A stretch of DNA of 64,000 nt from a virus, in the IMG/VR virus record IMGVR_UViG_3300009512_000010, positions 64,001 through 128,000 of that record; one strand, given 5' to 3'. The notes under the pieces are model-generated. The model did not search any database, had not been told where the DNA came from, and saw only the letters and a program-made list of their open reading frames with translations. Position 1 is the first letter of the stretch. Every line of letters begins with the position of its first letter. Shown piece by piece: positions 50,888 to 64,000 of this stretch. The position numbers and the translations under genes were made by a program.

Positions 50888-51448
50888 TTAGTCTCTGTAG
50901 AGATACAAATCAACAGGGACGCAGATCCGTAGTTCGGAGTAGTAAGGGTTGACGTGGTGATAAGCGAAACTTGGGAAGATCAAGAAGTCTCCTGTCTCAG
51001 GTTGATGATGATGTCTGTTAAACATTGGATTGAAATATTCGTCATACCCCCGATTGGCATTAGATCTAGGATCGTGTAGCACCAAGTCGCCGCCCGAATT
51101 TTGATCTTCTGCTAGTATATAGAACACGCCAGATAAGTGTGCTCCCGAATGATTGTGAATAGTCATTGAATAGTCTTTACCGTGACCAGTGATCCAACCC
51201 TTTAGCTTGTAGTTGTCCCAATCCTCAATAGAGCAATCAATAGTACTCTTTAGGTAGTCATTAAAAGCACTCTTAACAGTACTATTAAAGGCACTCATAA
51301 CAGCACTCTTATCATCCAATATGTTATATCCACCCAAATCGCTAGGTGGTTCGTTTAGATTGTATGTGCTAAATATATGTTCCACTAAACCAGTGGTGTC
51401 GAACTTTCCTTGACCCATCTGTGTAGGCCATAGATTATGGATATCCAT
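50888..51448 (-). CDS. 2OG-Fe(II) oxygenase
   Basis: HNHSGAHLSGVFY, GGDLVLHDPR, LIFPSFAYHHV, R-I. Confidence 0.85.
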   Translation of the reverse strand: MDIHNLWPTQMGQGKFDTTGLVEHIFSTYNLNEPPSDLGGYNILDDKSAVMSAFNSTVKSAFNDYLKSTIDCSIEDWDNYKLKGWITGHGKDYSMTIHNHSGAHLSGVFYILAEDQNSGGDLVLHDPRSNANRGYDEYFNPMFNRHHHQPETGDFLIFPSFAYHHVNPYYSELRICVPVDLYLYRD

Positions 51449-51540: not shown

Positions 51541-51843
51541 ATGAAAAGAGAGAATCACATGACTATGATGAACACAGTACTTGACCAAATCAATCGTATG
51601 GACGCTTCAGAAATCAACCGTGTAGTTGAAGCGATCAAATCTCGCCGCAACTCACTGTCTTATGCCACAAACGCTACCTTGCGTGTTGGCGATATTGTCT
51701 CTTGGATGCGCCGTGATGGAAGCACTGTAACAGGATCTGTTAAGAAAGTTAATCAGAAAACAGTTATAGTAAATGAACGTAATAACCCCAATGTTTGGAA
51801 AGTATCTTCAAGCATGCTTACTCCACTGTCTATAGGTGGATAA
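51541..51843 (+). CDS. Small hypothetical protein (SH3/KOW-like beta C-terminus)
   Basis: LRVGDIVSW...VTGSVKKVNQKTVIV...WKV; start probably 51559. Confidence 0.65.
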   Translation: MKRENHMTMMNTVLDQINRMDASEINRVVEAIKSRRNSLSYATNATLRVGDIVSWMRRDGSTVTGSVKKVNQKTVIVNERNNPNVWKVSSSMLTPLSIGG

Positions 51844-52307
51844 TGACATTTGACGAATTCTTCGACTTCTTGATGAGTGAAGAATGTTTTAATGACTGTT
51901 CGGTCTCCTTTATTAACAATAGAGGAGAACAACAGTACATAGAGCATGACGATTTATTTGCATATAGGGGCAAGGTGGTTGATCTTTGGTTTAGTGGAGA
52001 TGATACGATTAAGGTAGAGGGATATGAACGTATCCAACCTTATGATGGGACTATCCATATATTCTATGCTCCTACAAATGCTCCTTCATTTCCTGTACAT
52101 ACAGATCCTATAGATATCTATATCGAATGCCTTGATGGGCGTAAGATAATGGAAATTGACGACCAATACGTGATGATAGAAAAGGGAACGAAGATCTTTA
52201 TTCCCGCAGACACACCACACGTTGCGCTCAACTCAGAGAAAGCATTGACATTAAGCTATGGCATTAACGACACAAACACATTCGGTAATCTACGTAAAGA
52301 CTACTGA
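51843..52307 (+). CDS. JmjC/cupin-like Fe(II) oxygenase
   Basis: SFPVHTDP (HxD), LDGRK, FIPADTPHVA; TAATG-coupled start at 51843. Confidence 0.7.
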   Translation: MTFDEFFDFLMSEECFNDCSVSFINNRGEQQYIEHDDLFAYRGKVVDLWFSGDDTIKVEGYERIQPYDGTIHIFYAPTNAPSFPVHTDPIDIYIECLDGRKIMEIDDQYVMIEKGTKIFIPADTPHVALNSEKALTLSYGINDTNTFGNLRKDY

Positions 52308-53289
52308 AACTTGTAATCTTAATTGCAGTCACTGTTTTACTTCTGGTATGAATGGGCGTAAGATCTATTTTGATCACGTGAAGACCGCAAATTGGTGTAA
52401 CGAACTCGACACTGGCTCTAACCAGATCCATTTAGAGTACCATGGTGGTGAGCCTATGCTTGCGCCCATGGCACACCTACGAGAATTCCATGACATCACT
52501 AAAGCTCAATGGGGTGATCGTGCAACTCATGGTATCACAACAAATCTTGTGTTTAAGCTTACCGAAGAGAAACTTGCATTCTTTAGTGAAATCATTACAG
52601 GTGGTAACATCGGCACCTCATGGGATCCTAATATTCGTTTTACTAACGAACATCAAAGGAAGATGTGGGAAAATAATGTTAAGCAGTTGACAGGACTTGG
52701 GCATAGTGTCAAGTGCTTTATCTCTGTATCTAAGGATGTTATTAAACTACAACCGTTGGAGATTGCTGATTATATGGAGTCTCTTGGTGTTGCTGAGATC
52801 TCTTATGAACGACTTACCCATGATGGTAATGCCACAATCAATACGGACATCTTTCCTCATAACTCTGAACTAGATGCTTGGTGGATGCTGATGCATGAAC
52901 AAACTCAAGATCACCCTGTAGAAAACGGCTTTATGGGATCCATCTACGACAAGTTCAACAAAGGGCAGTTCCAGATCGGCACATTCTGTCGTGATTGCGA
53001 ACAAAAGATCCACACTATTAATGCAGACGGTACTGTCGCAGGCTGTCCTAACACCGCACCAACCATGCATTATGGTCATATAGATACACCAGCAAAGGAA
53101 GTAAGATTAAGTCCTAAGCGTATGGAGATCATATCTTGTGAACAGCATGAACGTGATGAACGGTGTTACAAATGTCCAGTCTTTATGTATTGCCATTCTG
53201 ACTGTCATCAGTTACAATGGATGGATGATGTGTGCCCTGCGCCTAAAACATTGATGATGAAGTTAGCGAAAGAGAAGAAATGGATTTAA
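52258..53289 (+). CDS. Radical SAM/SPASM protein
   Basis: CNLNCSHC, HGGEP; SPASM-like C...G-x4-CP...CYKC-x5-C-x3-C...C. Confidence 0.92.
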   Translation: MALTTQTHSVIYVKTTETCNLNCSHCFTSGMNGRKIYFDHVKTANWCNELDTGSNQIHLEYHGGEPMLAPMAHLREFHDITKAQWGDRATHGITTNLVFKLTEEKLAFFSEIITGGNIGTSWDPNIRFTNEHQRKMWENNVKQLTGLGHSVKCFISVSKDVIKLQPLEIADYMESLGVAEISYERLTHDGNATINTDIFPHNSELDAWWMLMHEQTQDHPVENGFMGSIYDKFNKGQFQIGTFCRDCEQKIHTINADGTVAGCPNTAPTMHYGHIDTPAKEVRLSPKRMEIISCEQHERDERCYKCPVFMYCHSDCHQLQWMDDVCPAPKTLMMKLAKEKKWI

Positions 53290-54317
53290 TCGTAAAGCCA
53301 ACCGAAGCGTGTAACTTCAAGTGTACATTTTGCTCGTCAACAGATATCGATCCCAATGAGGTTGGTCTGTTAGACTTGAGCTATATCTATAGGTTCTTAG
53401 AAAGGTTTCCAGAGACTAACACAATTATTGTTAATGGTGGTGACCCTCTTATGGTCAAGCCACAGTATTATCAAGATCTAATTGACCACCTTAATGAGCA
53501 TGATTACCCAGCAAGCATTAGCTTTACGTCCAACCTTTGGCCTTTCCTAATGAAACCTAAGAAGTGGTTACCCATCTTTCAGAACGAACGATTTGGTTGT
53601 GCCACATCATTTCAGTATGGTGGCGGTAGACTAAAAGGCGATTATTCAGAGTTCACAGAGGCAGACTTTTGGATGGTGTCTAATGCCATGTTGAAGCATA
53701 CAGGTGAACGTCCAGATTTTATCGCAGTTATTACAGAAGAGAATGAGCATCTCGCCATTAAGAATGTAGAACTAGCAAAAGAGATGGGCGTCGAGTGTAA
53801 GTTGAACTATGCTATGGCTTCTGGTGTACAGGGATCTACGTATCAATTAAGCAAGATCTACGAAACATATCTTGAGATTTATGACCGTGGTCTAGCCGAT
53901 CATGAGTTCAACACTAAGCAAATGATGAAACGTCTTGGGGGATCTTCTACATCATGCCCACAGAATAGAGCGTGTGATGAAGGTATCCGTGCATTTAACC
54001 CAGGAGGTGATTACTACTCTTGTGGTTCATTTGCAGATGATATGGATTATCCTATCGACTTCGAAACTGAGATGGCAGGAAAGTTGCAAACACCACTGCA
54101 ACACGACCCCAACATTCAGACAATGAAGATGGCTTGTTACACATGCCCTATGTTTGAAATCTGCAATGGTTGTAAGAAAACTGTGCGTGATATGAAACGT
54201 GAAGGTACTGTTGAAGGTCATTGTAGGCAGATGAAAGCATTGGCACCTCGTATCCTTGCTACCAATAATATGAGTCCTGATGGAGTGACGCCCTATGTCG
54301 ATGAATCTATCAATTAA
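53280..54317 (+). CDS. Radical SAM/SPASM protein
   Basis: KPTEACNFKCTFC, NGGDP; C...GDYYSC...CYTC-x5-CNGC...C. Confidence 0.92.
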   Translation: MDLIVKPTEACNFKCTFCSSTDIDPNEVGLLDLSYIYRFLERFPETNTIIVNGGDPLMVKPQYYQDLIDHLNEHDYPASISFTSNLWPFLMKPKKWLPIFQNERFGCATSFQYGGGRLKGDYSEFTEADFWMVSNAMLKHTGERPDFIAVITEENEHLAIKNVELAKEMGVECKLNYAMASGVQGSTYQLSKIYETYLEIYDRGLADHEFNTKQMMKRLGGSSTSCPQNRACDEGIRAFNPGGDYYSCGSFADDMDYPIDFETEMAGKLQTPLQHDPNIQTMKMACYTCPMFEICNGCKKTVRDMKREGTVEGHCRQMKALAPRILATNNMSPDGVTPYVDESIN

Positions 54318-55224
54318 CCCAACTTACTATTGTAACTTCTCTTGCGACTTTTGTTACTTGACAAAGCAACAGTTAAATGATAGACACAAGATAAACCCAA
54401 TGTGGTTACAACATTCTATGGGTCAAATAACAGATCCTATAACTCATGTTGATTTATATGGCGGTGAGATTGGATTACTAACACCAGAGTATTATTATTC
54501 GATCAAAGAGGTGATTAGGAGATACTATGGTGGTAGTATCCACATCAACACAAATCTGTCAGCATTTCCAGACTTCTTCCGTGATGATGATGTTACCCTA
54601 TCGGTATCTTATGACTTCCACGCAAGAGAGAAAGAACAGTTTGTTCTAAATAACATGATGAATGCTAATAAGGATCTTGCTGTCCTTATCCTTGCATCGC
54701 CTAAAGTATTGAAGATGGATGTGGAGTTTATGATCTTCACTCTTAACATGGTTTCTAATGTCAAGTCGGTAGAGATCAAGCCTTACTCTATCAACCAAGC
54801 CAATGCATTTGATGTTACTCATAAAGACTTTGAGGACTTCGTTATTAGGTTTGATGAGGCTAAGACTAAGAAGAACTTTGACTTCCAAAACATACACAAC
54901 ATTTATAGAAGTATAGATAAAGAGTACAATGCCTTTTCCAATGACCACGTCTATATCACACCATCTGGTAAGTTTGGCGTATTGGAGTTTGATAAGCATG
55001 ATAAAGAGTACTTCAAGGAGTATAGCACATATTATGAATATAAACAATGGGCAGATAACGAAGCTGTTGATAATCTTAGCGACATTTGTCGTAGCTGTAC
55101 CTATTTCGGTACATGTCTTACCGAGCACTATCGGTACGTATTGGATTTAGACAACAGTTGCAATGGATATAAAGGATTACTAGATTACTATGGAAAATTG
55201 GAAAGCGAGACAGAAGGCGTATAA
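54295..55224 (+). CDS. Radical SAM protein with reduced SPASM-like tail
   Basis: CNFSCDFC, YGGEI, CRSC-x5-C...C. Confidence 0.88.
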   Translation: MSMNLSINPTYYCNFSCDFCYLTKQQLNDRHKINPMWLQHSMGQITDPITHVDLYGGEIGLLTPEYYYSIKEVIRRYYGGSIHINTNLSAFPDFFRDDDVTLSVSYDFHAREKEQFVLNNMMNANKDLAVLILASPKVLKMDVEFMIFTLNMVSNVKSVEIKPYSINQANAFDVTHKDFEDFVIRFDEAKTKKNFDFQNIHNIYRSIDKEYNAFSNDHVYITPSGKFGVLEFDKHDKEYFKEYSTYYEYKQWADNEAVDNLSDICRSCTYFGTCLTEHYRYVLDLDNSCNGYKGLLDYYGKLESETEGV

Positions 55225-55588
55225 TCATATGACAACAAACCACCGTGACGATTTGACGGATGTTGATGTATTGAATAGGCCAGAATTTATTGTAGAAGAT
55301 GCTTTGATGCACTTCGATAAGAGAGTGGATCAGTGGATCTACCCAGCGAAGTCGTTCTTCGTTGCAATCTGCTATGCCAATTGGATAGCCGAAGACTTTG
55401 GTGAGCAGTTCTATGATGTACTAAACTATAACGAATTACTACCAGACGATCCACACTTCCTACCATATGAGAGAAGTAAAGAGATCTATGATGAGATCCT
55501 TTCTAAAGTTAATTTTGATAATACTAATGGTATGGTTCCAGATGTCTATGAGTATTACCAAGAGGAATTCATGATTGGACAACTTTGA
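55190..55588 (+). CDS. Hypothetical protein in the rSAM operon
   Basis: 132 aa, overlaps both flanking rSAM genes. Confidence 0.7.
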   Translation: MENWKARQKAYNHMTTNHRDDLTDVDVLNRPEFIVEDALMHFDKRVDQWIYPAKSFFVAICYANWIAEDFGEQFYDVLNYNELLPDDPHFLPYERSKEIYDEILSKVNFDNTNGMVPDVYEYYQEEFMIGQL

Positions 55589-56657
55589 CTTCACCAAACA
55601 GCTACTGGAATCTAAACGTCCAGACATAGCCGAGATTGAGATGACACTCTTTGAGAACTGTCACCTCAACTGTTCTTTTTGTCACCACGACAAGAAGTCT
55701 ACAGTAGGCTTGTCTCGTGAAGAGATCTTCTCCAAGATCCCTCTAGTAGAAGAGCATGTTATTAAGATGAAGAACCGTGCAGACGTTATTCAGATCAATA
55801 TGCTTGGTGGAGAATTGTTTCAAGACCGAATATCTGAGTGGGCTTATGAGGTCTACTACGACTTCTTAGTTGAGATTAAGAAGATCTATGATGAACATAA
55901 GCAGAACATTAAAGTAGTTTGGGTAACATCCTTTCAGTTTAGTAAACGTGAGAGAGTTCAAAAACTACTTGATGATTTGAATGCAATAGACATTCCATCC
56001 TATATTATCTGTTCTTATGACTTTGATGGTAGACCTGTCAAAGGACCTTATGGCAAGAACATAGAATACTTTGCTGATTATATCACATCTATTAATATGG
56101 TTGCAACCACTATTTCTATTAAAAAGTTTATGGCAGATGAGGACGAGTACTTTCACTATCTGTATAATAAGTTTGATAACTTCTACTTTGATGATTACAT
56201 TCCTGATCGTGGTTATGACTATATGATCCCATCAGATAGTGAGTATCTTGAGTTCCTAAAGTTTGTGTATCATAACTATCCAGACATCAATCCTATCAAG
56301 GATCTGATCTATAACGAAACAAATCATATGCATTGCTTGGCTCTTAACAAGGTTACAATCTTTCCTGATAACTCTACATCAAACTGTAGATGGGATAGAT
56401 ATGACCAACGTGACTTCAACACGAAGTATGAGCCTAAAGATAATGCTGGTATGATGCAAGCTTATATGGATGAGAATGGTTGCTTGTCATGTAAGTGGTA
56501 CAACAAGTGTGGCTTTAGATGTTATACACAATGGGATTGGAAGAACCGTGAACGAGATCTGCCCGACTGTATAATGCGCATGTGGTTTAACTACATGGAC
56601 AAGACAGGACAAAACCAAATCACAGGATTTGATTACGTGGGAACAAACACTCCGTAA
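55575..56657 (+). CDS. Radical SAM/SPASM-like protein
   Basis: CHLNCSFC, LGGEL, C...C...CLSC-x5-C-x3-C...C. Confidence 0.88.
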   Translation: MDNFDFTKQLLESKRPDIAEIEMTLFENCHLNCSFCHHDKKSTVGLSREEIFSKIPLVEEHVIKMKNRADVIQINMLGGELFQDRISEWAYEVYYDFLVEIKKIYDEHKQNIKVVWVTSFQFSKRERVQKLLDDLNAIDIPSYIICSYDFDGRPVKGPYGKNIEYFADYITSINMVATTISIKKFMADEDEYFHYLYNKFDNFYFDDYIPDRGYDYMIPSDSEYLEFLKFVYHNYPDINPIKDLIYNETNHMHCLALNKVTIFPDNSTSNCRWDRYDQRDFNTKYEPKDNAGMMQAYMDENGCLSCKWYNKCGFRCYTQWDWKNRERDLPDCIMRMWFNYMDKTGQNQITGFDYVGTNTP

Positions 56658-57642
56658 CACCGTGATGCTCCATGTAGGATTGCACACCCTTATCGATACA
56701 CGTCATCATATGAGCACATCCAGAACAACTATCTGTATTGGCAGTGTATGCTAATTGCGACCCAAAGTTGTCGCTTTTGGCACTTATCCAAGATTCAATA
56801 TCATTCTCATCATGTACTTTAAACTTGTCTGTGCCTATCTTAACAATATCGTAGACGAATGGTGTCCAGAAGAAGTTGCCATTACAGTATGTGTAGTTAA
56901 GTTCTAAGGATCCGCCCTGTGCTTGATCGATGATAGTAGAGGGAAAAGCGTCTTCTGCCCAATCATCTAGCTTCTTCCACTTGTCTATTAGATGTTTCTG
57001 TACCTTAAACTTATCCGCTCTAAGAAACGATGGGTTAAGAGTTAAGATCGTGTCAAACTCATCGTCAGCAATATCTGAGAACTCTATGACTTTGGCATTG
57101 GTCTTATCGTCATTACCCATATTCATTACAAGATAGTAATTCAGATCGTCATCGAATAGGTTTAGCTTATCGATCATATCTTTGTATCCATGGGGGAACT
57201 TTTTAGGATCGATTGCTATGTTAGCATCGTACATGAACCCATCTATTTTGGGTATGCTGTTAAGTAATTCGATAACCTCCGTTGAGATGTTGGTTAGAGT
57301 CGTCACGAATTGTATAGTAGAAACCTTACTCAAACACTCTCGAAATGTTTCATCTCGCAATAACTCTATGACGTTGTTGTTGCCGAATAGATCAGTTGGT
57401 CCGATATTGATAGTGGAAACCCTATACCCATTATTATTGAACAAGTCAATAGCATTGTTTAATCTTTCGTAGGATCCCATGTTAGTGCCTAGTTTGTTTA
57501 CAAAACAACCCACACACTTGAACTCACATCCTGACAGAACTTCAGCATTGAATATAACCTTGATCTCGTGTCCTTCGTTAAAGGATAGATCAAAGTCTGC
57601 ATCAGCCTGAGCTTCTTTCTTGTTGTTAGTAACTATTCCCAT
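56620..57642 (-). CDS. Divergent radical SAM-like protein (GPTD subfamily)
   Basis: GCEFKCVGCF, IGPTDLF, CSGC-x5-C...C; start refined to 57642. Confidence 0.8.
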   Translation of the reverse strand: MGIVTNNKKEAQADADFDLSFNEGHEIKVIFNAEVLSGCEFKCVGCFVNKLGTNMGSYERLNNAIDLFNNNGYRVSTINIGPTDLFGNNNVIELLRDETFRECLSKVSTIQFVTTLTNISTEVIELLNSIPKIDGFMYDANIAIDPKKFPHGYKDMIDKLNLFDDDLNYYLVMNMGNDDKTNAKVIEFSDIADDEFDTILTLNPSFLRADKFKVQKHLIDKWKKLDDWAEDAFPSTIIDQAQGGSLELNYTYCNGNFFWTPFVYDIVKIGTDKFKVHDENDIESWISAKSDNFGSQLAYTANTDSCSGCAHMMTCIDKGVQSYMEHHGVTECLFPRNQIL

Positions 57643-58759
57643 GGTAATCCTCGTTATCGAATAGAGCAATAACATCTTTGTTTAATATACATTCAGATCT
57701 TCCCTCAAACATCGTATCCATAACTTTGGGTATCAATCTGTTGGAGCACACGTTGAGGTACTTACACGTTCCGCATTCTTTATTAGAACTATTTATTATC
57801 TGATCTGTAACGACTTGGTGTTTGTAATTTAAGATACCTTCTACTGTATGTGTAGTGATCTCGAAGTCATCTTTATAGATCTGAGCATTCTCATAGATGA
57901 ATGGTGACGCATATAGTTTGCCGTTGTGGATGTTCACCACCGCATAGTGAAATGCTTTGTGAGATAGATCCCCCTGTAAGAAGTGAAACTTGTTCTTAAA
58001 ACGATTGACATCACTAGACAAGTTTGTCAACATATCATTCCAAGCGAATAGTTTGTCTCCATGCTTGGTAGAATGGTTAAAGGATCTGACAACAGAGGGT
58101 AAGATTTCAATGACCGTGTCGTAGGTTTCACGTATGTAGTCGATAGCTTCGTATAGCCTGTCTTCGATACCCTCTACAATGTTAGTTGCCATAGAGATCT
58201 CAAAGTCCAACGAACTCTCTTTGAAGTTCATCACTCTGTTTCTCAATGCTTTCCTGTATCTTTTATCATCCAATACACGCACAAGATCTAAAGCAATCTG
58301 CACATCCCAAGACTCAACAACCTTACCAAGAGGAGACTTTTCGATAGCCTTGATCTTACCTAGAATATCATCTTCCGATAGAGACCCCATGATAGAACAG
58401 TTATGTTGAATGTTTCTATTACCTTCTGGTATCATAGAGATGGCATCAGATAATCTGGCATTGTGTATGATTTCTTCTAGGTTTTCTGCACCATAGAAGT
58501 CTGTAGGTCCGATAACAATATCGTCTAACACGACATCAGTTCTACCATGTAATTCGTATGCCAGATTGTGAAACATCTTAATTGACTTGGGATTCCAATT
58601 ACCTCTACGTTTAACAAAACAACCAGGACACATGTAAGAGCACCCTTCAAGTAATTCTAAAGTAACTTGGATCTTGTACTGCGTCATTGAGGATACTGAA
58701 GTAAACTCTTCTCCCACACCACCGTGCTTAACAATGTCTTTCCAACTATTATTTAACAT
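57626..58759 (-). CDS. Divergent radical SAM-like protein (GPTD subfamily)
   Basis: GCSYMCPGCF, IGPTDFY, CGTC-x5-C...C. Confidence 0.8.
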   Translation of the reverse strand: MLNNSWKDIVKHGGVGEEFTSVSSMTQYKIQVTLELLEGCSYMCPGCFVKRRGNWNPKSIKMFHNLAYELHGRTDVVLDDIVIGPTDFYGAENLEEIIHNARLSDAISMIPEGNRNIQHNCSIMGSLSEDDILGKIKAIEKSPLGKVVESWDVQIALDLVRVLDDKRYRKALRNRVMNFKESSLDFEISMATNIVEGIEDRLYEAIDYIRETYDTVIEILPSVVRSFNHSTKHGDKLFAWNDMLTNLSSDVNRFKNKFHFLQGDLSHKAFHYAVVNIHNGKLYASPFIYENAQIYKDDFEITTHTVEGILNYKHQVVTDQIINSSNKECGTCKYLNVCSNRLIPKVMDTMFEGRSECILNKDVIALFDNEDYHGNSY

Positions 58760-59912
58760 AGGAGATGTCCTTAATTCGTTCTAGTTCTGGATCGTCATCT
58801 GTTGTAACAAGAAACCTCTTACGATAACCCTTCTTATCGTTTTCAACAGAATAGTCATCCCACTGATACATCTTCTGAGCAGGTGCATTATAGTTATGTA
58901 TATGTTCCATCATATTCTGCTTAGGAGCAATACAACGATCAACTCCAAGGTAATCTCTGAGTAGAATAATCTTTCTATTGTAACAAGACATCATCAAGGG
59001 ACAAGTTTCGCACTCTGTGCCCTTGACCCTTTCCAACTGAGATTGTACAATAGGAAGCACATCGTCAAAGTTATCCACTTTAAACATCTCATGGTACAAT
59101 GCCATGTTTTCGTACATAAACGGCGAAATGAACCATTCGCCCTTTTTATAGTTTAGTACGGTATAGTTCATGCCACCGTGTGAGTGGTCTACCATTATGT
59201 TATTTAATTCTGTTTCTTTATAAGCACTTAGCTCGTTAAAGAAGTCATTAAACTTGTCTAATGTATCTAATATTAGTTTAGGCTTGTGAGAACGTGAAAC
59301 AGACGGTACAAAGTCTAATATCGTTTTAAAGCGTTCTATTGCACTTTTATGCAGTTTAACGTAGTCTAGGCCATAATCACGTATATTGACCACAAACGTA
59401 TATGTCACTTCATGTTCTAGGTTTTTATCAATGTACTCCAACATCTTGTGAATATGCTGTACATAATCCTCATCAAAGAACTTGTTAACATTCGTTGCGA
59501 TACCAATTTCAATCTCAGTATCTATGTTAATATTATTTGTTATGAAAGCAACCCATCGTGGAAGATCCCCATCAATCAGTGTGCTGACAAATGCAAGAAT
59601 GGGTGAGTTCTCATTAATGATATCGACTAGAGATGGCATGACCTCATAGAAGTTTTCGGACGCAAGAAAGTCTGTAGGTCCGATAAGGATCTCGTCAACC
59701 AAGATGCCTCTATCAGTTATGTCTCGTATGAAGTCTTTGGCTTTATGGATCTGATGTTCATCACTAGCATTACCTCTGCGATGCACAAAACATCCCGGAC
59801 ATTTGTGATGACAACCATCTAGGATATCAAGCTGAAGTTTAACCGCCGAGACTGGTTTAGTTTGCGTCTCTGTGGTTAGCTCGTAATATAAGTTGTTCTT
59901 AATTAACGGCAT
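58749..59912 (-). CDS. Divergent radical SAM-like protein (GPTD subfamily)
   Basis: GCHHKCPGCF, IGPTDFL, CETC-x5-C...C. Confidence 0.8.
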   Translation of the reverse strand: MPLIKNNLYYELTTETQTKPVSAVKLQLDILDGCHHKCPGCFVHRRGNASDEHQIHKAKDFIRDITDRGILVDEILIGPTDFLASENFYEVMPSLVDIINENSPILAFVSTLIDGDLPRWVAFITNNINIDTEIEIGIATNVNKFFDEDYVQHIHKMLEYIDKNLEHEVTYTFVVNIRDYGLDYVKLHKSAIERFKTILDFVPSVSRSHKPKLILDTLDKFNDFFNELSAYKETELNNIMVDHSHGGMNYTVLNYKKGEWFISPFMYENMALYHEMFKVDNFDDVLPIVQSQLERVKGTECETCPLMMSCYNRKIILLRDYLGVDRCIAPKQNMMEHIHNYNAPAQKMYQWDDYSVENDKKGYRKRFLVTTDDDPELERIKDISYVK

Positions 59913-60924
59913 GCATATATTCTTTCAAGGCAACACAAGTGTTCAACTTCCTTGACTTCATATACACGTGTATGTTTCTTTCTGCGCAACTCATTAGGTA
60001 TTCGCATGTGTTACAATCGTCTACTGTCTTTGCATACTCTAGGTTAGTGCCCAACCATTCCTGATCCATTGTAGTTTGAAACTCAGGTGTTCTCTGAATG
60101 ATTGCGTCATATAAAAATGGATTGATGTATAATTTGCCGTTGTAGAAACTATAGTTCTGACAGCCATATCCATTAAACCTAGCATCAAAGAATGTGTATA
60201 AGTTCCTCCACTCATCATTTATCTTCTGCTTACGCAGATCTGCCCTAAACATATCAAGAAACTTATTGACCTTACCACGTGCATTCTTGTCTGTCAAGAA
60301 AGAAGGTGCGATGACTATGGGTGCGTTAAAGTCTTCCTTGACTTTGGCACACAGATCATTATATCCTATTCTGTCAAACAAATCAGGAGTGTAGTTAACT
60401 CTGAACTGAACAGATCCAATGGTAAACATCTTTATGTTTTCAAGGAAGTTGGGGTCAAGGTCATCATCAAGATACGCCTCAACATCTAACACAATCTTAA
60501 AGTCGATATCTGGAATTCTATTGATGTTACGATAGATCTGCCAAATCATATCAAGTTTAGGCTTGACAACCTTTGGGTCTTGTAATAGTGTAGATGTAAA
60601 TCCGACACCACTTATAGCATACAGGTCTGTCATCGATGGGTGTGTCATCACCTCATCAAAGTTCTGAGCATCAAAGATGTCAGTTGGACCTATAGTAATT
60701 TCATCTGGATAGAACTGTCCCTTACACAACTCATCGTATAGAGTAGCCATGTGATCAGGTGATGTCAAGTTCTTTCTTGGGATAAAGCATCCGGGACACA
60801 TCTGATCACAACCATGGAGAATATCCAAGTTGATCTCTGTGCGTAGGAAATCGGTATTAACAGGGCTTATGCCATGAACGTAACGATAGTACCCTGCTTC
60901 TGTTGCATTAAGCTTTGTTATCAT
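59899..60924 (-). CDS. Divergent radical SAM-like protein (GPTD subfamily)
   Basis: GCDQMCPGCF, IGPTDIF, CNTC-x5-C...C. Confidence 0.8.
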   Translation of the reverse strand: MITKLNATEAGYYRYVHGISPVNTDFLRTEINLDILHGCDQMCPGCFIPRKNLTSPDHMATLYDELCKGQFYPDEITIGPTDIFDAQNFDEVMTHPSMTDLYAISGVGFTSTLLQDPKVVKPKLDMIWQIYRNINRIPDIDFKIVLDVEAYLDDDLDPNFLENIKMFTIGSVQFRVNYTPDLFDRIGYNDLCAKVKEDFNAPIVIAPSFLTDKNARGKVNKFLDMFRADLRKQKINDEWRNLYTFFDARFNGYGCQNYSFYNGKLYINPFLYDAIIQRTPEFQTTMDQEWLGTNLEYAKTVDDCNTCEYLMSCAERNIHVYMKSRKLNTCVALKEYMHAVN

Positions 60925-61666
60925 CTAGAATCAACATGAAATCGTCGGGAAAGAATGATACGATCTGATCCGTAATCTTAGTCTCACACATAATATGATA
61001 GAGATCTTTGCCGAAATATTTGGGGGAGTCGTTAAACACTTGTTTATTATATTCAATCGACAATCCGTTTTTACTCAAGATTAGTAGAAGCGCATCATAG
61101 CCTGTAGTGAGAAGTCTGGCAATATTAGGTCCACACGTAGCTGGTTTATCAACTACCTTGATGTCTTCAACCAGTTCTTTTAGATTTTTTTCGGTTAGCT
61201 TCATATCATCGTCAAGCCCATCGTATAGTTTAGTTAGGGCAAATGGTACTGAAGATGCAACTGTGGCGATTAAATCGTCAACCAATTGTTCATTATCTTC
61301 AATAAACTTATCGATAAGTTTTGGTGGGAACAGATATAATAGTTGGCTCTCTTGTTCACCAATGTCATGTCTATATTTGAACTTAATAATAAGAACAATG
61401 ATCCTAGCCAATAGAGGACAGTCAACCATAAAGTCTGATTTGATATACGCTTTAATCAAGTCTTCGTCAATAGAAGAGAACGTTGTCTTAAAGTTAGTGT
61501 TAGCCAAATAGATGATAATGTGCTGTGCAGACAACTTCTCTTTACTCTTAGCATAATCAACCCAAAGAACGTATTCTTCAAGTTCACTCTTGTCTTTATA
61601 GATCTGTACTAAGTGTTGAGGAGATAGTGGTAACTCATAACACGTACTCTCGTCTGGAGTTGTCAT
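60908..61666 (-). CDS. Hypothetical protein in the rSAM operon
   Basis: Helical-looking ORF; start refined to MTTPDE at 61666. Confidence 0.7.
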   Translation of the reverse strand: MTTPDESTCYELPLSPQHLVQIYKDKSELEEYVLWVDYAKSKEKLSAQHIIIYLANTNFKTTFSSIDEDLIKAYIKSDFMVDCPLLARIIVLIIKFKYRHDIGEQESQLLYLFPPKLIDKFIEDNEQLVDDLIATVASSVPFALTKLYDGLDDDMKLTEKNLKELVEDIKVVDKPATCGPNIARLLTTGYDALLLILSKNGLSIEYNKQVFNDSPKYFGKDLYHIMCETKITDQIVSFFPDDFMLILDDNKA

Positions 61667-61679
61667 AATATAGTATTCC

Positions 61680-62783
61680 TTACAATGGGTACTTGTGGAT
61701 AAGATATGGAATGCGGTTTTGTCTCTTAGAGAAGAACTGCACATCTGTATTTATCAGCTTCAAATCTGCGGTTAGATTGTCCATGTCAAAGTCATTCTGC
61801 AATACCTTGCGCACGATAGGAAACACATTCTTAAACTCTGTGTATAGATCCATATATTCCCAACCATCTGCGTCACTATCTGCCTTAGATTGGTGAGCCG
61901 CAAGGAATGCAGTATCGTCTTTAACCAAGTTCCACAACTCTTCTAGTTGATAGAAAGCGGCAGTATAGTTTCCAGCATTAGCCTTAGTAACATAACAGGA
62001 TCTGATCCACGTAGTCTTGTTGGTTGCATATTCTGCATTACGTGATACATTGGCATTCATCCAATCGATGACTGCTAAAATATAAGCCAAGTAGTGGCGT
62101 CTTGATGTAAAGTGTTCCATCACATCTTGTGCCATTGTGGATTGGTGTACTGTAAACTTCTCTTTGATTAGTAGTTGTACTGAATTATTTGTATAGTAAT
62201 CGTTTAAGAAGAACAGTAGGTCATAACTGAAGTTCTTGCCATTCTGATAGATCACCGTATAAGGAGTTACTGCCCCACCACCTGAGTCTGTGGAGAATAG
62301 TGTGTCTACATGATTTGATACATCTAAAATAGTTTCATTGTCAAGCACCATAGTGAGCATAACATCCATAGAGAAGATCTTCTCAAGGAATGCTCCAACC
62401 ATTGCATTAACGTTAGTAGACGAGTCATAGAAACCAGATGCCGTAATAAGACCTGATGTGTAACGTGCAAAAACTGTGATCATATCTTCAACAGTAGAAA
62501 ATAGAATGATAACCTTATCACTGTTTTGAATATAGTCGATATCATCTACATCAGCGTAATCCATATAACTAATCAAATCGTTAGCATTTGCTCTAATCGT
62601 ATTAGCAATAGACTCATACTGAGCCGCCAATAATTGATCACCATTAGATCGGTGTACAATCACGATGTTACGTGGGGTTGCTGTGTGATAATACGAGTTT
62701 AACTCGAAACACACTGTTCCCAAGTTGTTAATAGTTGAGATATACTTTGAGTTGTTTAAGTAATAGAGATTTTGACCGATCAT
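61680..62783 (-). CDS. Hypothetical protein in the rSAM operon
   Basis: 367-aa ORF with no recognisable motif. Confidence 0.7.
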   Translation of the reverse strand: MIGQNLYYLNNSKYISTINNLGTVCFELNSYYHTATPRNIVIVHRSNGDQLLAAQYESIANTIRANANDLISYMDYADVDDIDYIQNSDKVIILFSTVEDMITVFARYTSGLITASGFYDSSTNVNAMVGAFLEKIFSMDVMLTMVLDNETILDVSNHVDTLFSTDSGGGAVTPYTVIYQNGKNFSYDLLFFLNDYYTNNSVQLLIKEKFTVHQSTMAQDVMEHFTSRRHYLAYILAVIDWMNANVSRNAEYATNKTTWIRSCYVTKANAGNYTAAFYQLEELWNLVKDDTAFLAAHQSKADSDADGWEYMDLYTEFKNVFPIVRKVLQNDFDMDNLTADLKLINTDVQFFSKRQNRIPYLIHKYPL

Positions 62784-62785
62784 GG

Positions 62786-63964
62786 TTACGCTCCGTCTTT
62801 CATTTTGTATTTAGTTGCATCATCATTCCATGTAAAGTCGAATGGATTATAGTGTTTCAATGTTTCTTTAGGTAATACACACCCATCAATATTGAGACTA
62901 TCTTGAGCCTCGAATACCAATCTACTTGCACAAGCCATAGCAAACTGACAGTCTGCACAATCTTTTACCTTACTAGACTTATTTATACCCTTTGTAATCA
63001 GTTCGTTCTTACGTTGTAAGATCTCTTCGAATGTAAGTCCTGTTACGTCTAGGTTCTTATTAGTTATAAAGAACGCTTGTTCGTGAAGCATTACATTCAA
63101 GTGTGTCGTAGGTCCGTTCTCTCCTGGAACAATAGTAATGCCCACAAAGTTGATTGAGTTACAGTAGAGATTAGCCATAGACATAACAGTCTCACTAGCA
63201 TTGTTCTCATCAATAACCGACTCAAGGAACTTATTCCACGCAAACAAGTTGTTACGTTGAATGATTTGATTAGGTGCCCTAGCGAATGCAGGGTTCATTT
63301 CCATAATAGTGCCGAAGTCGTTTACAGAACGATCAATCAGCCTATTGTATTTCTCTTTGTCAATCTGCTTACCGACAACGTTAGAAGCCTGTAATGTCCA
63401 AGACCAATCCATCATCTTTGGAGTTTCGTTCTTAAAGAACTCTATTTTCTCCATAACTCTGTTATAGTAATCGTCATCATCCAACATCTCGTTAATACGA
63501 CCAATCGGCATAATGAATTCGATAACCATGTCACGTCTATACGCATCTAGGTCATCCAGAATAGCAAAGATCTCTCTGACCTTTTCCATTGAAGCATTGT
63601 CGAACTTAGCTGGAGACGCAATACGTGCATTAGTGTGTTCTCTCATTATAGCTTGAACAGTTGGGTTTGTCAATACTTCTTTTGTATTCTTAGCAGAAAA
63701 TAGATCTGTAGGTCCGATAACAAACTCTCTTAGGTTACCACCCACACGTAATACACCATCAGCAAGTTCCTTAGCACGATCAATGATCTGTTGATTGCTT
63801 ACAGGATCAATTGCTTTGTCAACGAAACATCCAAGACAGCCCTGTTCACATCCAGCCAGAACTTCCATCTGAATAAGAACATCGAACTTTGTTGCATCAG
63901 ATGGTGCCAGACTTTCGGGTCCTGAGTATCTCATCTGCTTACAATATGATTGTTGCATTGTCAT
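62786..63964 (-). CDS. Divergent radical SAM-like protein (GPTD subfamily)
   Basis: GCEQGCLGCF, IGPTDLF, CADC-x5-C...C. Confidence 0.8.
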   Translation of the reverse strand: MTMQQSYCKQMRYSGPESLAPSDATKFDVLIQMEVLAGCEQGCLGCFVDKAIDPVSNQQIIDRAKELADGVLRVGGNLREFVIGPTDLFSAKNTKEVLTNPTVQAIMREHTNARIASPAKFDNASMEKVREIFAILDDLDAYRRDMVIEFIMPIGRINEMLDDDDYYNRVMEKIEFFKNETPKMMDWSWTLQASNVVGKQIDKEKYNRLIDRSVNDFGTIMEMNPAFARAPNQIIQRNNLFAWNKFLESVIDENNASETVMSMANLYCNSINFVGITIVPGENGPTTHLNVMLHEQAFFITNKNLDVTGLTFEEILQRKNELITKGINKSSKVKDCADCQFAMACASRLVFEAQDSLNIDGCVLPKETLKHYNPFDFTWNDDATKYKMKDGA

Positions 63965-63965
63965 G

Positions 63966-64000
63966 TTATCGTCTTCCTCTTGATGTATGACAGCTGGTGT
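63966..64000 (-). CDS. C-terminal end of an upstream gene, ...TSCHTSRGRR* (candidate modification substrate)
   Basis: Minus strand AC ACC AGC TGT CAT ACA TCA AGA GGA AGA CGA TAA; stop lies 1 nt before the rSAM ATG. Only 35 nt visible. Confidence 0.6.
   Translation of the reverse strand, partial: TSCHTSRGRR

What the first reader, a model, noticed from the sequence alone, without database searches (positions are those of the whole stretch)
63966..64000. Window-edge gene ends ...TSCHTSRGRR*: probable substrate of the rSAM locus
Seen: the 35 nt upstream of the first minus-strand rSAM read xAC-T-S-C-H-T-S-R-G-R-R-stop. If the cut codon is CAC this is HTS-C-HTS, a tandem C-H-x-S repeat with a basic tail. 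Known: His-Xaa-Ser repeat peptides and Cys-rich peptides are substrates associated with rSAM/SPASM maturases. Inference: a repeated CHxS core at a protein C-terminus is crosslinked or converted to a metal-binding motif. Only ten codons are visible, and AGAGGA also serves as the next gene's SD, so caution is needed.
Basis: partly seen in the sequence, partly recalled or inferred. Interest (0 to 1): 0.85.

Follow-up and report, generated by a model that had tools for sequence, protein, structure and literature searches.

The report
Radical-SAM-linked Cys-His tail on phage protein
The ten codons at the window edge are the end of a real 128-residue phage late protein whose near-invariant tail, (Cys-His-x-Ser)x3-Arg-Gly-Arg-Arg, is always encoded beside a dedicated set of radical-SAM enzymes, which points to an undescribed chemical finishing step on a virus-particle protein.

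Summary
Reading past the window edge gives a 128-aa ORF ending CHSSCHTSCHTSRGRR*, and the cut codon is CAC. A 128-aa paralogue with the same tail lies directly upstream, behind tail-fibre-like genes of a 160-kb marine T4-like phage contig.

Among 120 whole-protein homologues (down to 38% identity), 116 keep (CHxx)3-RGRR and 90 have no other cysteine. A DNA pattern for the tail hit at least 119 viral contigs and 18 MAG contigs. Of these 138 loci, 134 carry homologues of this window's radical-SAM/cupin/2OG-oxygenase genes. The other 4 are cut off at the flank.

Five cultured phage lineages (RSL2, SURPRISE13, Atu_ph07, Phosso, pPa_SNUABM_DT01) show cupin, then rSAM/SPASM, then a tail protein.

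In published proteomics the Atu_ph07 counterpart, gp170, is a virion protein. It peaks in the top gel slice despite a mass of 31.9 kDa, and its enzymes are absent from particles.

Best reading: a folded virion-associated protein whose tail is the substrate of the cassette. The linkage is shown. The modification and its chemistry are inferred.

No Pfam or NCBIfam family fits, and I found no paper on it. The closest known systems are the bacterial HXS system and anSME.

This scan has already met the same cassette on other DNA, in at least 17 genomes.

The parts
63966..64000 (-). Last 11 codons plus stop of the downstream tail-carrier gene. The full gene runs beyond the window: contig 127966-128352 = L001:966-1352(-), 128 aa, ending CHSSCHTSCHTSRGRR*. 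Its twin, the upstream carrier (128 aa, same tail), is at L001:1352-1738(-), outside the window.
   Evidence: 120 homologues; phrog_35144 (unknown function) E 1.9e-6 and 3.3e-9
62786..63964 (-). q15: 392-aa rSAM-like paralogue (Cx3Cx2C at 39-46, GPTD in place of GGE, C-terminal Cx2Cx5C..C). It starts 1 nt after the carrier's stop codon.
   Evidence: (phrog_31457); directly follows the carrier pair in the type-B loci whose downstream flank is kept
61680..62783 (-). q14: 367-aa protein with no family match and no Cx3Cx2C motif.
   Evidence: syntenic in type-B loci
60908..61744 (-). q13: 278-aa partner protein of unknown fold. In single-carrier (type-A) loci its homologue often directly follows the carrier gene.
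   Evidence: alignment A3; AF2 pLDDT 83.7; no clear structural match
59899..60924 (-). q12: 341-aa rSAM-like paralogue (Cx3Cx2C, GPTD).
58749..59912 (-). q11: 387-aa rSAM-like paralogue (Cx3Cx2C, GPTD). Weak Pfam Radical_SAM hit. Its homologue in RSL2 is ORF071.
57626..58759 (-). q10: 377-aa rSAM-like paralogue (Cx3Cx2C, GPTD).
56620..57675 (-). q09: 351-aa rSAM-like paralogue (Cx3Cx2C, GPTD); last gene of the minus-strand operon.
55575..56657 (+). q08: 360-aa canonical rSAM (Cx3Cx2C, GGE) with a Cys-rich C-terminal region; a core cassette gene.
55190..55588 (+). q07: 132-aa protein with no family match; a core cassette gene.
54295..55224 (+). q06: 309-aa canonical rSAM (Cx3Cx2C, GGE).
53280..54317 (+). 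q05: 345-aa rSAM/SPASM enzyme. Best but sub-threshold matches are DynA and anSME.
52258..53289 (+). q04: 343-aa rSAM/SPASM enzyme, the gene most tightly linked to the tail. In single-carrier loci it sits immediately upstream of the carrier. Invariant Cx3Cx2C, HGGEP and SPASM Cx2Cx5Cx3C.
51795..52307 (+). q03: 170-aa cupin/JmjC-like protein, placed directly before q04 in most loci that keep that flank.
50888..51448 (-). q01: 186-aa 2OG-Fe(II) oxygenase (PF13759); recurs in the cassette elsewhere.

Best explanation
The edge ORF is the end of the downstream member of a tandem pair of 128-aa late proteins in a marine T4-like phage.

Both proteins belong to a large, unnamed family. The family is defined by a C-terminal module of about 55 residues: an amphipathic helix, a short beta-like linker, then (Cys-His-x-Ser)x3-Arg-Gly-Arg-Arg-COOH. 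This module is attached to very different N-terminal bodies.

Proposed mechanism:
1. The protein is made late, together with fibre and structural proteins.
2. Its tail is threaded into the dedicated rSAM/SPASM enzyme (q04, 52258-53289). This enzyme, helped by the cupin/JmjC-like and 2OG oxygenases and the further rSAM enzymes, abstracts hydrogen atoms from the Cys/His/Ser units. The result is covalent modification: thioether or C-C crosslinks, or anSME-like oxidation of Cys.
3. The finished protein is built into the virion near the fibres or baseplate. The enzymes stay behind in the cell.

Shown here: the gene, its twin, the invariance of the tail, the strict gene linkage, the enzymes' rSAM/SPASM motifs, and the virion location of one distant counterpart.

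Inferred: that the tail is modified at all, which enzyme acts first, the chemistry, and that this phage's own pair is in its virion.
For: Gene and twin:
-.

Tail conservation, independent of the pattern search:
- 116 of 120 whole-protein homologues (94-38% identity) keep (CHxx)3RGRR. 113 keep (CHxS)3RGRR. 90 of 120 have no Cys outside the tail.
- Of 148 representatives at 50% identity that were inspected, 120 end (CHxx)3-RGRR and 15 more end RSRR, RNRR or GGRR. The tail is always at the extreme C-terminus, on bodies of 58-747 aa.
- Selection acts on the protein. Both Ser codon families and both Arg codon families are used at the fixed positions.

Linkage:
- 116 of 120 viral loci and 18 of 18 genome loci with the tail carry homologues of the window's cassette genes. 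The 4 exceptions lack the downstream flank.
- In five cultured phage lineages the order is cupin, then q04-type rSAM/SPASM, then tail protein.

Enzyme:
- q04 has invariant Cx3Cx2C, HGGEP and a complete SPASM Cys set.
- It reaches the SPASM domain model's cut-off (29.9 bits against 27).
- Its nearest solved relatives are 8vpo, anSME, the sactisynthase CteB (5wgg) and ChlB (9gm3).

Body:
- The body is folded (AF2 pLDDT 78.9).
- Types A and B share only the last ~55 residues (hhalign 99.1%, E 1e-18).

Virion location:
- Atu_ph07 gp170 (296 aa, 31.89 kDa, ends CHSSCHASCHNSRSRR) was found in purified particles with 8 peptides and 35% coverage. It was most abundant in band 1, while other ~30-kDa proteins peak in bands 7-8. 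gp171 (rSAM) and gp172 (cupin) are not in the particle list (PMC6102473 Table S5; mapping and mass checked).

Context here:
- The carriers directly follow a 982-aa cyanophage-type virion structural protein and two collagen-like fibre genes, with gaps of at most a few tens of nt.
- The upstream and downstream twins are two old paralogue lineages kept in fixed order (2 label changes on the tree against 15.6 when shuffled).
Against: - No mass-spectrometric or other direct evidence that any tail is modified.
- Here the closest neighbour of the tail is a non-canonical rSAM paralogue, and q04 lies 10 kb away on the other strand.
- Virion evidence comes from one phage whose protein shares only the C-terminal module with this one.
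- The Atu_ph07 sample buffer lists no reducing agent, so the top-of-gel position may reflect disulfides from the three Cys rather than enzymatic crosslinks.
- Three Cys plus three His could simply be a metal site.
- All specific rSAM family models are missed by hundreds of bits, so no chemistry can be transferred by homology.
I could not see which part.
Confidence: 0.65

Rival explanations
1. The tail is an unmodified metal-binding or Fe-S-binding motif (three Cys and three His, possibly pooled in an oligomer) that stabilises a fibre or baseplate part. The neighbouring rSAM enzymes act on something else.
For: The composition is Cys/His only. Cys at i, i+4 and i+8 would line one face of a helix, and the AF2 model draws residues 115-124 as a low-confidence helix. 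90 of 120 homologues have no other Cys. From general knowledge, not tested here: phage fibres and tail tips are known to bind Fe or Zn through His or Cys.
Against: A metal site does not explain two things. One is the near-invariant Ser in each unit and the RGRR-COOH end. The other is the strict co-inheritance with one particular rSAM/SPASM gene across phages of Alpha-, Beta- and Gammaproteobacteria, marine phages and Bdellovibrionota.
Confidence: 0.12
2. A classical RiPP: the 112-residue body is a long leader, and the 16-residue core is modified, cut off and released as a small bioactive peptide or metallophore.
For: Precursor-like layout, with the variable part first and an invariant C-terminal core. 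The gene lies beside SPASM maturases whose weak best hits are RiPP maturases such as DarE, PapB, AmcB and DynA.
Against: Among the cassette genes scanned, none matched a protease or exporter family. The body is folded and conserved and reaches 747 aa in relatives. Atu_ph07 gp170 is found in particles with 35% coverage. The genes sit inside late structural operons.
Confidence: 0.1
3. The tail protein is not the substrate but an accessory of the cassette, for example a scaffold, a cluster or electron carrier, or a substrate-presenting adaptor. The real target would be another fibre protein, a glycan or DNA.
For: The cassette holds many more enzymes (9 Cx3Cx2C proteins here) than a 16-residue tail seems to need. 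A sugar- and collagen-modifying island lies next to it (notes, not tested here).
Against: An accessory would not be expected in purified virions while the enzymes are absent. The tail is the only element shared by otherwise unrelated bodies, which is the hallmark of a recognised substrate.
Confidence: 0.08

Closest known systems
HXS antiphage system (HxsA with His-Xaa-Ser repeats, rSAM enzymes HxsB and HxsC, HxsD; Li et al., Nat Commun 2026, PMC13128918)
   Same: A folded protein, not a small peptide, carries tandem H-x-S units rich in basic residues. It is matured by dedicated rSAM enzymes. In HxsA, a +8 Da change was mapped to an SHRSS motif whose His and Ser are essential.
   Different: Here each unit begins with an invariant Cys. 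There are three units at the extreme C-terminus, followed by RGRR. The system is encoded by phages and the protein goes into virions, rather than into the periplasm of a defending cell. No Pfam or NCBIfam family, peptidoglycan-binding or other, matched either carrier. q04 and q05 score 27 and 25 bits against HxsB and HxsC, whose cut-offs are 370 and 268.
Anaerobic sulfatase-maturating enzyme (anSME/AtsB, TIGR03942, PDB 4K36-4K39) acting on sulfatases
   Same: A compact rSAM/SPASM enzyme of about 350 aa without a leader-binding RRE domain modifies a Cys in a folded protein. anSME is among the best solved matches of the q04 profile (E 3e-8). The last unit, C-H-[TSG]-S-R, has Ser at +3 and Arg at +4, like the sulfatase motif C-T-P-S-R (the motif is from general knowledge).
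   Different: Scores are 30-38 bits against a cut-off of 349. There is no Pro or Ala at +2. There are three tandem units and many more enzymes plus oxygenases. The target is not a sulfatase.
CXXX-repeat peptide system (TIGR04115 rSAM maturase, CXXX-repeat target family) and other SPASM RiPP maturases (PapB, CteB, DarE, AmcB, XyeB)
   Same: The target has Cys at every fourth residue. SPASM maturases of this kind form thioether or cyclophane crosslinks on short repeated motifs.
   Different: q04 scores 20 bits against a cut-off of 350 for TIGR04115, and is similarly far below every other equivalog. The substrate is a structural phage protein. No family membership can be claimed.

Membership tests
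SPASM-domain radical SAM enzymes (superfamily level) | Cx3Cx2C cluster motif, GGE SAM motif, and a C-terminal SPASM Cys set (Cx2Cx5Cx3C plus upstream Cys); TIGR04085 domain cut-off of 27 bits | tested here: met
   q04 has invariant C19/C23/C26, H62-G-G-E-P66, and C244, C247, C263, C303, C306, C312, C316 and C326 in 44 sequences. It scores 29.9 bits on TIGR04085.
HXS system (HxsA/B/C/D) | HxsB (TIGR03978) and HxsC (TIGR03977) equivalog scores | tested here: not met
   27.4 bits against a cut-off of 370, and 25.2 bits against 267.9. The minus-strand paralogues give no hit at all.
HXS system (HxsA/B/C/D) | Substrate with tandem His-Xaa-Ser repeats | tested here: met
   H-x-S occurs three times inside (C-H-x-S)3. 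The intervening invariant Cys and the C-terminal position differ from HxsA as the paper describes it.
HXS system (HxsA/B/C/D) | HxsD partner, and an HxsA peptidoglycan-binding domain with N-terminal processing | tested here: not met
   No NCBIfam or Pfam hit to HxsD or HxsA, or to any PG-binding domain, in the carriers or cassette proteins. N-terminal processing was not testable.
anSME / sulfatase maturation | TIGR03942 equivalog score; substrate motif C/S-x-P/A-x-R in a sulfatase | tested here: not met
   30.6 bits (q04) and 37.5 bits (q05) against a cut-off of 349. The tail has C-H-x-S-R without Pro or Ala at +2. The carrier has no sulfatase domain.
CXXX-repeat target rSAM maturase (TIGR04115) | Equivalog score of 350 bits | tested here: not met
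   20.2 bits, covering the N-terminal cluster region only.
Cyclophane-forming rSAM maturases (XyeB, GrrM/OscB, AmcB, YhhB) | Equivalog scores (380-450 bits) | tested here: not met
   Best score is 35.7 bits (AmcB) for q04. The others are at or below 25 bits.
RiPP precursor (class definition) | Leader removed by proteolysis and the modified core released | not testable with these tools
   None of the cassette proteins scanned matched a protease or transporter family. The published virion detection of the Atu_ph07 counterpart argues against release.
PHROG 35144 (phage proteins of unknown function) | Profile match | tested here: met
   E 1.9e-6 (residues 88-128) and 3.3e-9 (residues 31-128), aligned to the profile's C-terminal end. 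The family has no annotated function.
Virion structural protein | Detection in purified particles | tested here: inconclusive
   Only the distant counterpart Atu_ph07 gp170 has proteomic evidence. There are no data for this phage. The late structural-operon context is supportive.

The most novel reading that the evidence does not exclude
Phages from many lineages, and Bdellovibrio-like predators, use a multi-enzyme radical-SAM/oxygenase pathway to turn an invariant (Cys-His-x-Ser)3-RGRR tail into a new covalent structure on a particle protein. That structure could be a crosslinking handle or a cofactor-like, metal-binding warhead at the host-contact apparatus. It would then explain why Atu_ph07 gp170 runs at the top of an SDS gel. 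This would be a new class of enzymatic virion maturation.
Probability: 0.3. Interest if true: 0.88.

Novelty: new variant of a known kind. Interest (0 to 1): 0.72.

Why it matters
Post-translational chemistry of phage particles is known mostly as proteolysis, glycosylation and isopeptide crosslinks. A dedicated battery of radical-SAM enzymes finishing a virion protein would be a new kind of virus maturation.

The system is widespread. It occurs in more than 119 viral contigs, in cultured jumbo phages of plant pathogens and Pseudomonas, in marine T4-like phages and in predatory bacteria. It is completely unannotated.

It also offers the rSAM field a compact new substrate motif, with culturable models (Atu_ph07, RSL2, SURPRISE13, pPa_SNUABM_DT01) in which the product can be read directly by mass spectrometry. 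If the tail sits at the adsorption apparatus, it may matter for host recognition and particle stability.

Tried and rejected
- Complex prediction of q04 with carrier residues 78-128. Score 0.01 against a mark of 0.32, so there is no verdict. This counts neither for nor against binding.
- Fold searches with the carrier model: Foldseek against PDB and BFVD, and VIA-align wide. Nothing above generic helical-hairpin level (best Z 5.7).
- Fold searches with the q13 model. Best Z is 4.7. Weak partial alignments to the rear half of rSAM barrels (Cfr, SkfB, CteB, ChlB) are not enough to call it a degenerate rSAM.
- Single-sequence PDB searches with q04, q13 and q15 gave only noise.
- tblastn of both carrier types against 50,697 phage records found nothing, although the tail is present in those genomes. 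The bodies are too divergent and the tail is short.
- The ESM Atlas feature search returned only unnamed clusters.
- No Pfam family matched any of 44 type-A carriers.
- Literature searches found no description of the system. I searched for the motif strings and for phage + SPASM/radical SAM + virion/tail fibre.
- Collagen-crosslink idea: that the tail is oxidised to an aldehyde and crosslinks the neighbouring G-X-K collagen-like fibres. I rejected it as a general mechanism, because collagen-like ORFs occur in only 7 of 32 type-B and 3 of 85 type-A loci.
- Sigma-70 promoter and terminator scans of the locus were at or below shuffle expectation.
- phiRP12/phiRP31 also carry an rSAM cluster (PMC5468394). 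I could not check their sequences for the tail, so they are not used as evidence.

Full report
**Observation.** The reverse complement of window 63966-64000 reads x-T-S-C-H-T-S-R-G-R-R-stop. The window is bases 64001-128000 of a single 159,934-bp contig with 40.7% G+C, so I read on past the edge.
- The cut codon is CAC.
- The frame runs back to an ATG and gives a 128-aa protein, L001:966-1352(-), ending SISAVLCHSSCHTSCHTSRGRR*.
- A second 128-aa gene with the same 16-residue tail lies directly upstream at L001:1352-1738(-).
- These are the only two such tails in the contig.
- The next gene (q15, 62786-63964) starts 1 nt after the stop. The R-G-R codons AGAGGAAGA double as its Shine-Dalgarno sequence.

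**Context.** Upstream on the same strand, with gaps of at most a few tens of nucleotides, lie:
- two collagen-repeat proteins that hit many PHROG tail-fibre families;
- a 982-aa protein that is 45% identical to a 'virion structural protein' of Synechococcus phages S-CAM1 and S-CAM3.

The contig is therefore a marine T4-like myovirus, and the twins close a late structural operon.

Downstream are seven minus-strand genes. Five of them (q15, q12, q11, q10, q09) are paralogues with Cx3Cx2C, GPTD in place of GGE, and a C-terminal Cys cluster. The other two (q14, q13) have no family match.

A plus-strand operon converges on them. It holds a cupin/JmjC-like protein (q03), four canonical rSAM enzymes (q04, q05, q06, q08; q04 and q05 with SPASM-type Cys sets) and a small unknown protein (q07). 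A 2OG-Fe(II) oxygenase (q01) lies beside it.

**Is the tail real and selected?** A whole-protein search found 121 homologues; the best 120 are listed, all unannotated.
- 116 of the 120 listed keep (CHxx)3RGRR and 113 keep (CHxS)3RGRR, although overall identity falls to 38%.
- 90 have no cysteine elsewhere.
- A profile search of 1.84 billion representatives found 152 clusters at 50% identity. I inspected the tails of the 148 new proteins among the 150 listed. 120 end (CHxx)3-RGRR and 15 more end R-[S/N]-R-R or GGRR. The tail is always at the very C-terminus, on bodies of 58 to 747 aa.
- In 131 distinct DNA versions, the fixed Ser positions use both AGY and TCN codons and the Arg positions use both AGR and CGN codons. 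Selection therefore acts on the peptide, not on the DNA or the ribosome-binding site.

**Linkage.** All 18 are MAG contigs, and nine are from Bdellovibrionota, some on contigs of 299-382 kb.

I searched the ORFs of all fetched loci with the window's 15 cassette proteins. 116 of 120 viral loci and 18 of 18 genome loci hold at least one homologue, usually several. The four exceptions are loci cut off just downstream of the carrier.

Two architectures appear:
- Type A: cupin (q03), then rSAM/SPASM (q04), then a single carrier of 170-310 aa, then q13, q08, q05, q06, q07 and q01.
- Type B (this window): a large structural or fibre gene, then two tandem carriers of about 127 aa, then q15, q14, q13, q12, q11, q10 and q09. 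The q03-q08 operon converges on this block.

In five cultured lineages the order cupin, rSAM/SPASM, tail protein is exact. These are Ralstonia RSL2, Burkholderia SURPRISE13, Agrobacterium Atu_ph07, Sinorhizobium Phosso and Pseudomonas pPa_SNUABM_DT01.

q04 is therefore the universal partner. The five GPTD-type paralogues next to the tail here are a lineage-specific expansion.

**The carrier.**
- AlphaFold2 with 65 homologues gives a moderately confident model (pLDDT 78.9): helix, long beta-hairpin, loop, helix, then a low-confidence tail. No structural neighbour was found.
- Profile-profile comparison shows that type-A and type-B carriers share only the last ~55 residues, that is the helix, linker and tail (probability 99.1%, E 1e-18). 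The unit of conservation is a C-terminal module grafted onto different bodies, as expected for an enzyme-recognised substrate.
- In a tree built without the tail, 21 of 23 upstream twins form one strongly supported clade (98/100). Position in the pair needs only 2 changes on the tree, against 15.6 for shuffled labels. The duplication is old and both copies are kept in fixed order, which suggests that they work together.

**The enzymes.**
- In 44 sequences q04 keeps Cx3Cx2C, HGGEP and a full SPASM set, Cx2C...GC...Cx2Cx5Cx3C...C.
- It reaches the SPASM domain model's cut-off but misses every specific equivalog by hundreds of bits: DarE, PapB, AmcB, DynA, anSME, HxsB, the CXXX-repeat family and XyeB.
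- Its profile's best solved relatives are 8vpo, anSME, CteB and ChlB.
- q13 folds confidently (pLDDT 83.7) but has no clear structural relative.

**Virion evidence.** I mapped Atu_ph07 AUZ94952.1 to gp170 by gene order, gene lengths and mass. It is 296 aa, 31.89 kDa, has three Cys (all in the tail) and ends CHSSCHASCHNSRSRR.

Table S5 of Attai et al. 2018 (PMC6102473) lists gp170 among proteins of purified particles, with 8 unique peptides and 35% coverage. It was found in bands 1-9 and was most abundant in band 1. That top slice is where proteins above 100 kDa run, whereas the other 29-32-kDa proteins peak in bands 7-8.

gp171 (rSAM) and gp172 (cupin) are not listed. The sample buffer as described contains no reductant, so the high apparent mass may be due to disulfides or to another covalent link.

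**Interpretation.** It is now backed by strict co-inheritance across very distant phages. That a modification occurs, and what it is, remain inferred. The complex prediction gave no verdict.

I favour, at about 0.65, a folded virion-associated protein whose tail is covalently modified by q04 and its partners. The rivals are:
- an unmodified metal site (0.12);
- a released RiPP (0.10);
- an accessory role for the tail protein (0.08).

**Comparison with what is known.** The closest described system is the bacterial HXS defence system, in which rSAM enzymes mature a protein with HxS repeats (PMC13128918). anSME is the closest enzyme-substrate analogy. Membership of either was tested and not met.

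I found no paper on the (CHxS)3-RGRR family. In the cultured genomes the carrier genes are annotated only as hypothetical proteins.

Earlier agents of this scan reached similar readings on other genomes. I re-derived the linkage, the virion datum and the HXS comparison independently here. One note says that part of a similar claim fell on checking, but I could not see which part.

Noticed in passing
L001:1739-2812(-) and L001:2816-4516(-) (contig 128739-131516, just beyond the window): Two collagen-like proteins with long G-X-K/G-X-Y repeat runs lie directly upstream of the twin carriers, and they hit many PHROG tail-fibre families. Such collagen-like neighbours occur in only 7 of 32 type-B loci, so they are not part of the conserved cassette.
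   Followed up: partly
L049 and L062 (both from IMGVR_UViG_3300025138_000014, 151 kb): One phage contig carries two systems: a type-B twin pair behind its fibre genes, and a separate type-A single carrier (195 aa) with its own q04-type rSAM.
   Followed up: partly
L129, L130, L132-L136, L138, L140 (Bdellovibrionota MAG contigs; L133 from a 382-kb contig and L135 from a 299-kb contig): The tail plus cassette also occurs in predatory bacteria, some with four CHxS units (for example ...CHSSCHSSCHGSCHGSRGRR). I did not determine whether these are prophages or cellular genes.
   Followed up: partly
window 62980-62987(-), and ten other minus-strand sites in the window: The T4-type late-promoter motif TATAAATA occurs 11 times in the window against 4.55 expected, all on the minus strand. 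One copy lies inside the 3' end of q15, just upstream of q14. None lies between the fibre genes and the carriers.
   Followed up: partly
window 63969-63980, and the same position in 131 related tails: The R-G-R codons are mostly AGA-GGA-AGA (100, 79 and 94 of 131). This creates an AGAGGA Shine-Dalgarno-like sequence for the gene that follows within 1-4 nt, which suggests translational coupling of the carrier and the next gene.
   Followed up: partly
P0194 (1621 aa) and P0266 (564 aa): Two large proteins match the body of the type-B carrier (profile positions about 9-94) several times over, and neither has the tail. The small body domain may be a repeat unit of larger fibre-like proteins.
   Followed up: no
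window 60908-61744(-) (q13): The confident AF2 model has no clear structural relative. Residues 21-110 align weakly (Z 3.4-4.7) with the rear half of several rSAM barrels (Cfr, SkfB, CteB, ChlB). This hints at a degenerate rSAM paralogue without the cluster, but does not show it.
   Followed up: partly
phiRP12/phiRP31 (PMC5468394, Supplementary Tables): These phiKZ-like Ralstonia phages list a differently arranged cluster of rSAM, 'arylsulfatase regulator (Fe-S oxidoreductase)', MoaA-like and MgoB-like genes. It follows two unannotated ORFs of 125 and 295 aa. I did not check whether those ORFs carry the tail.
   Followed up: no
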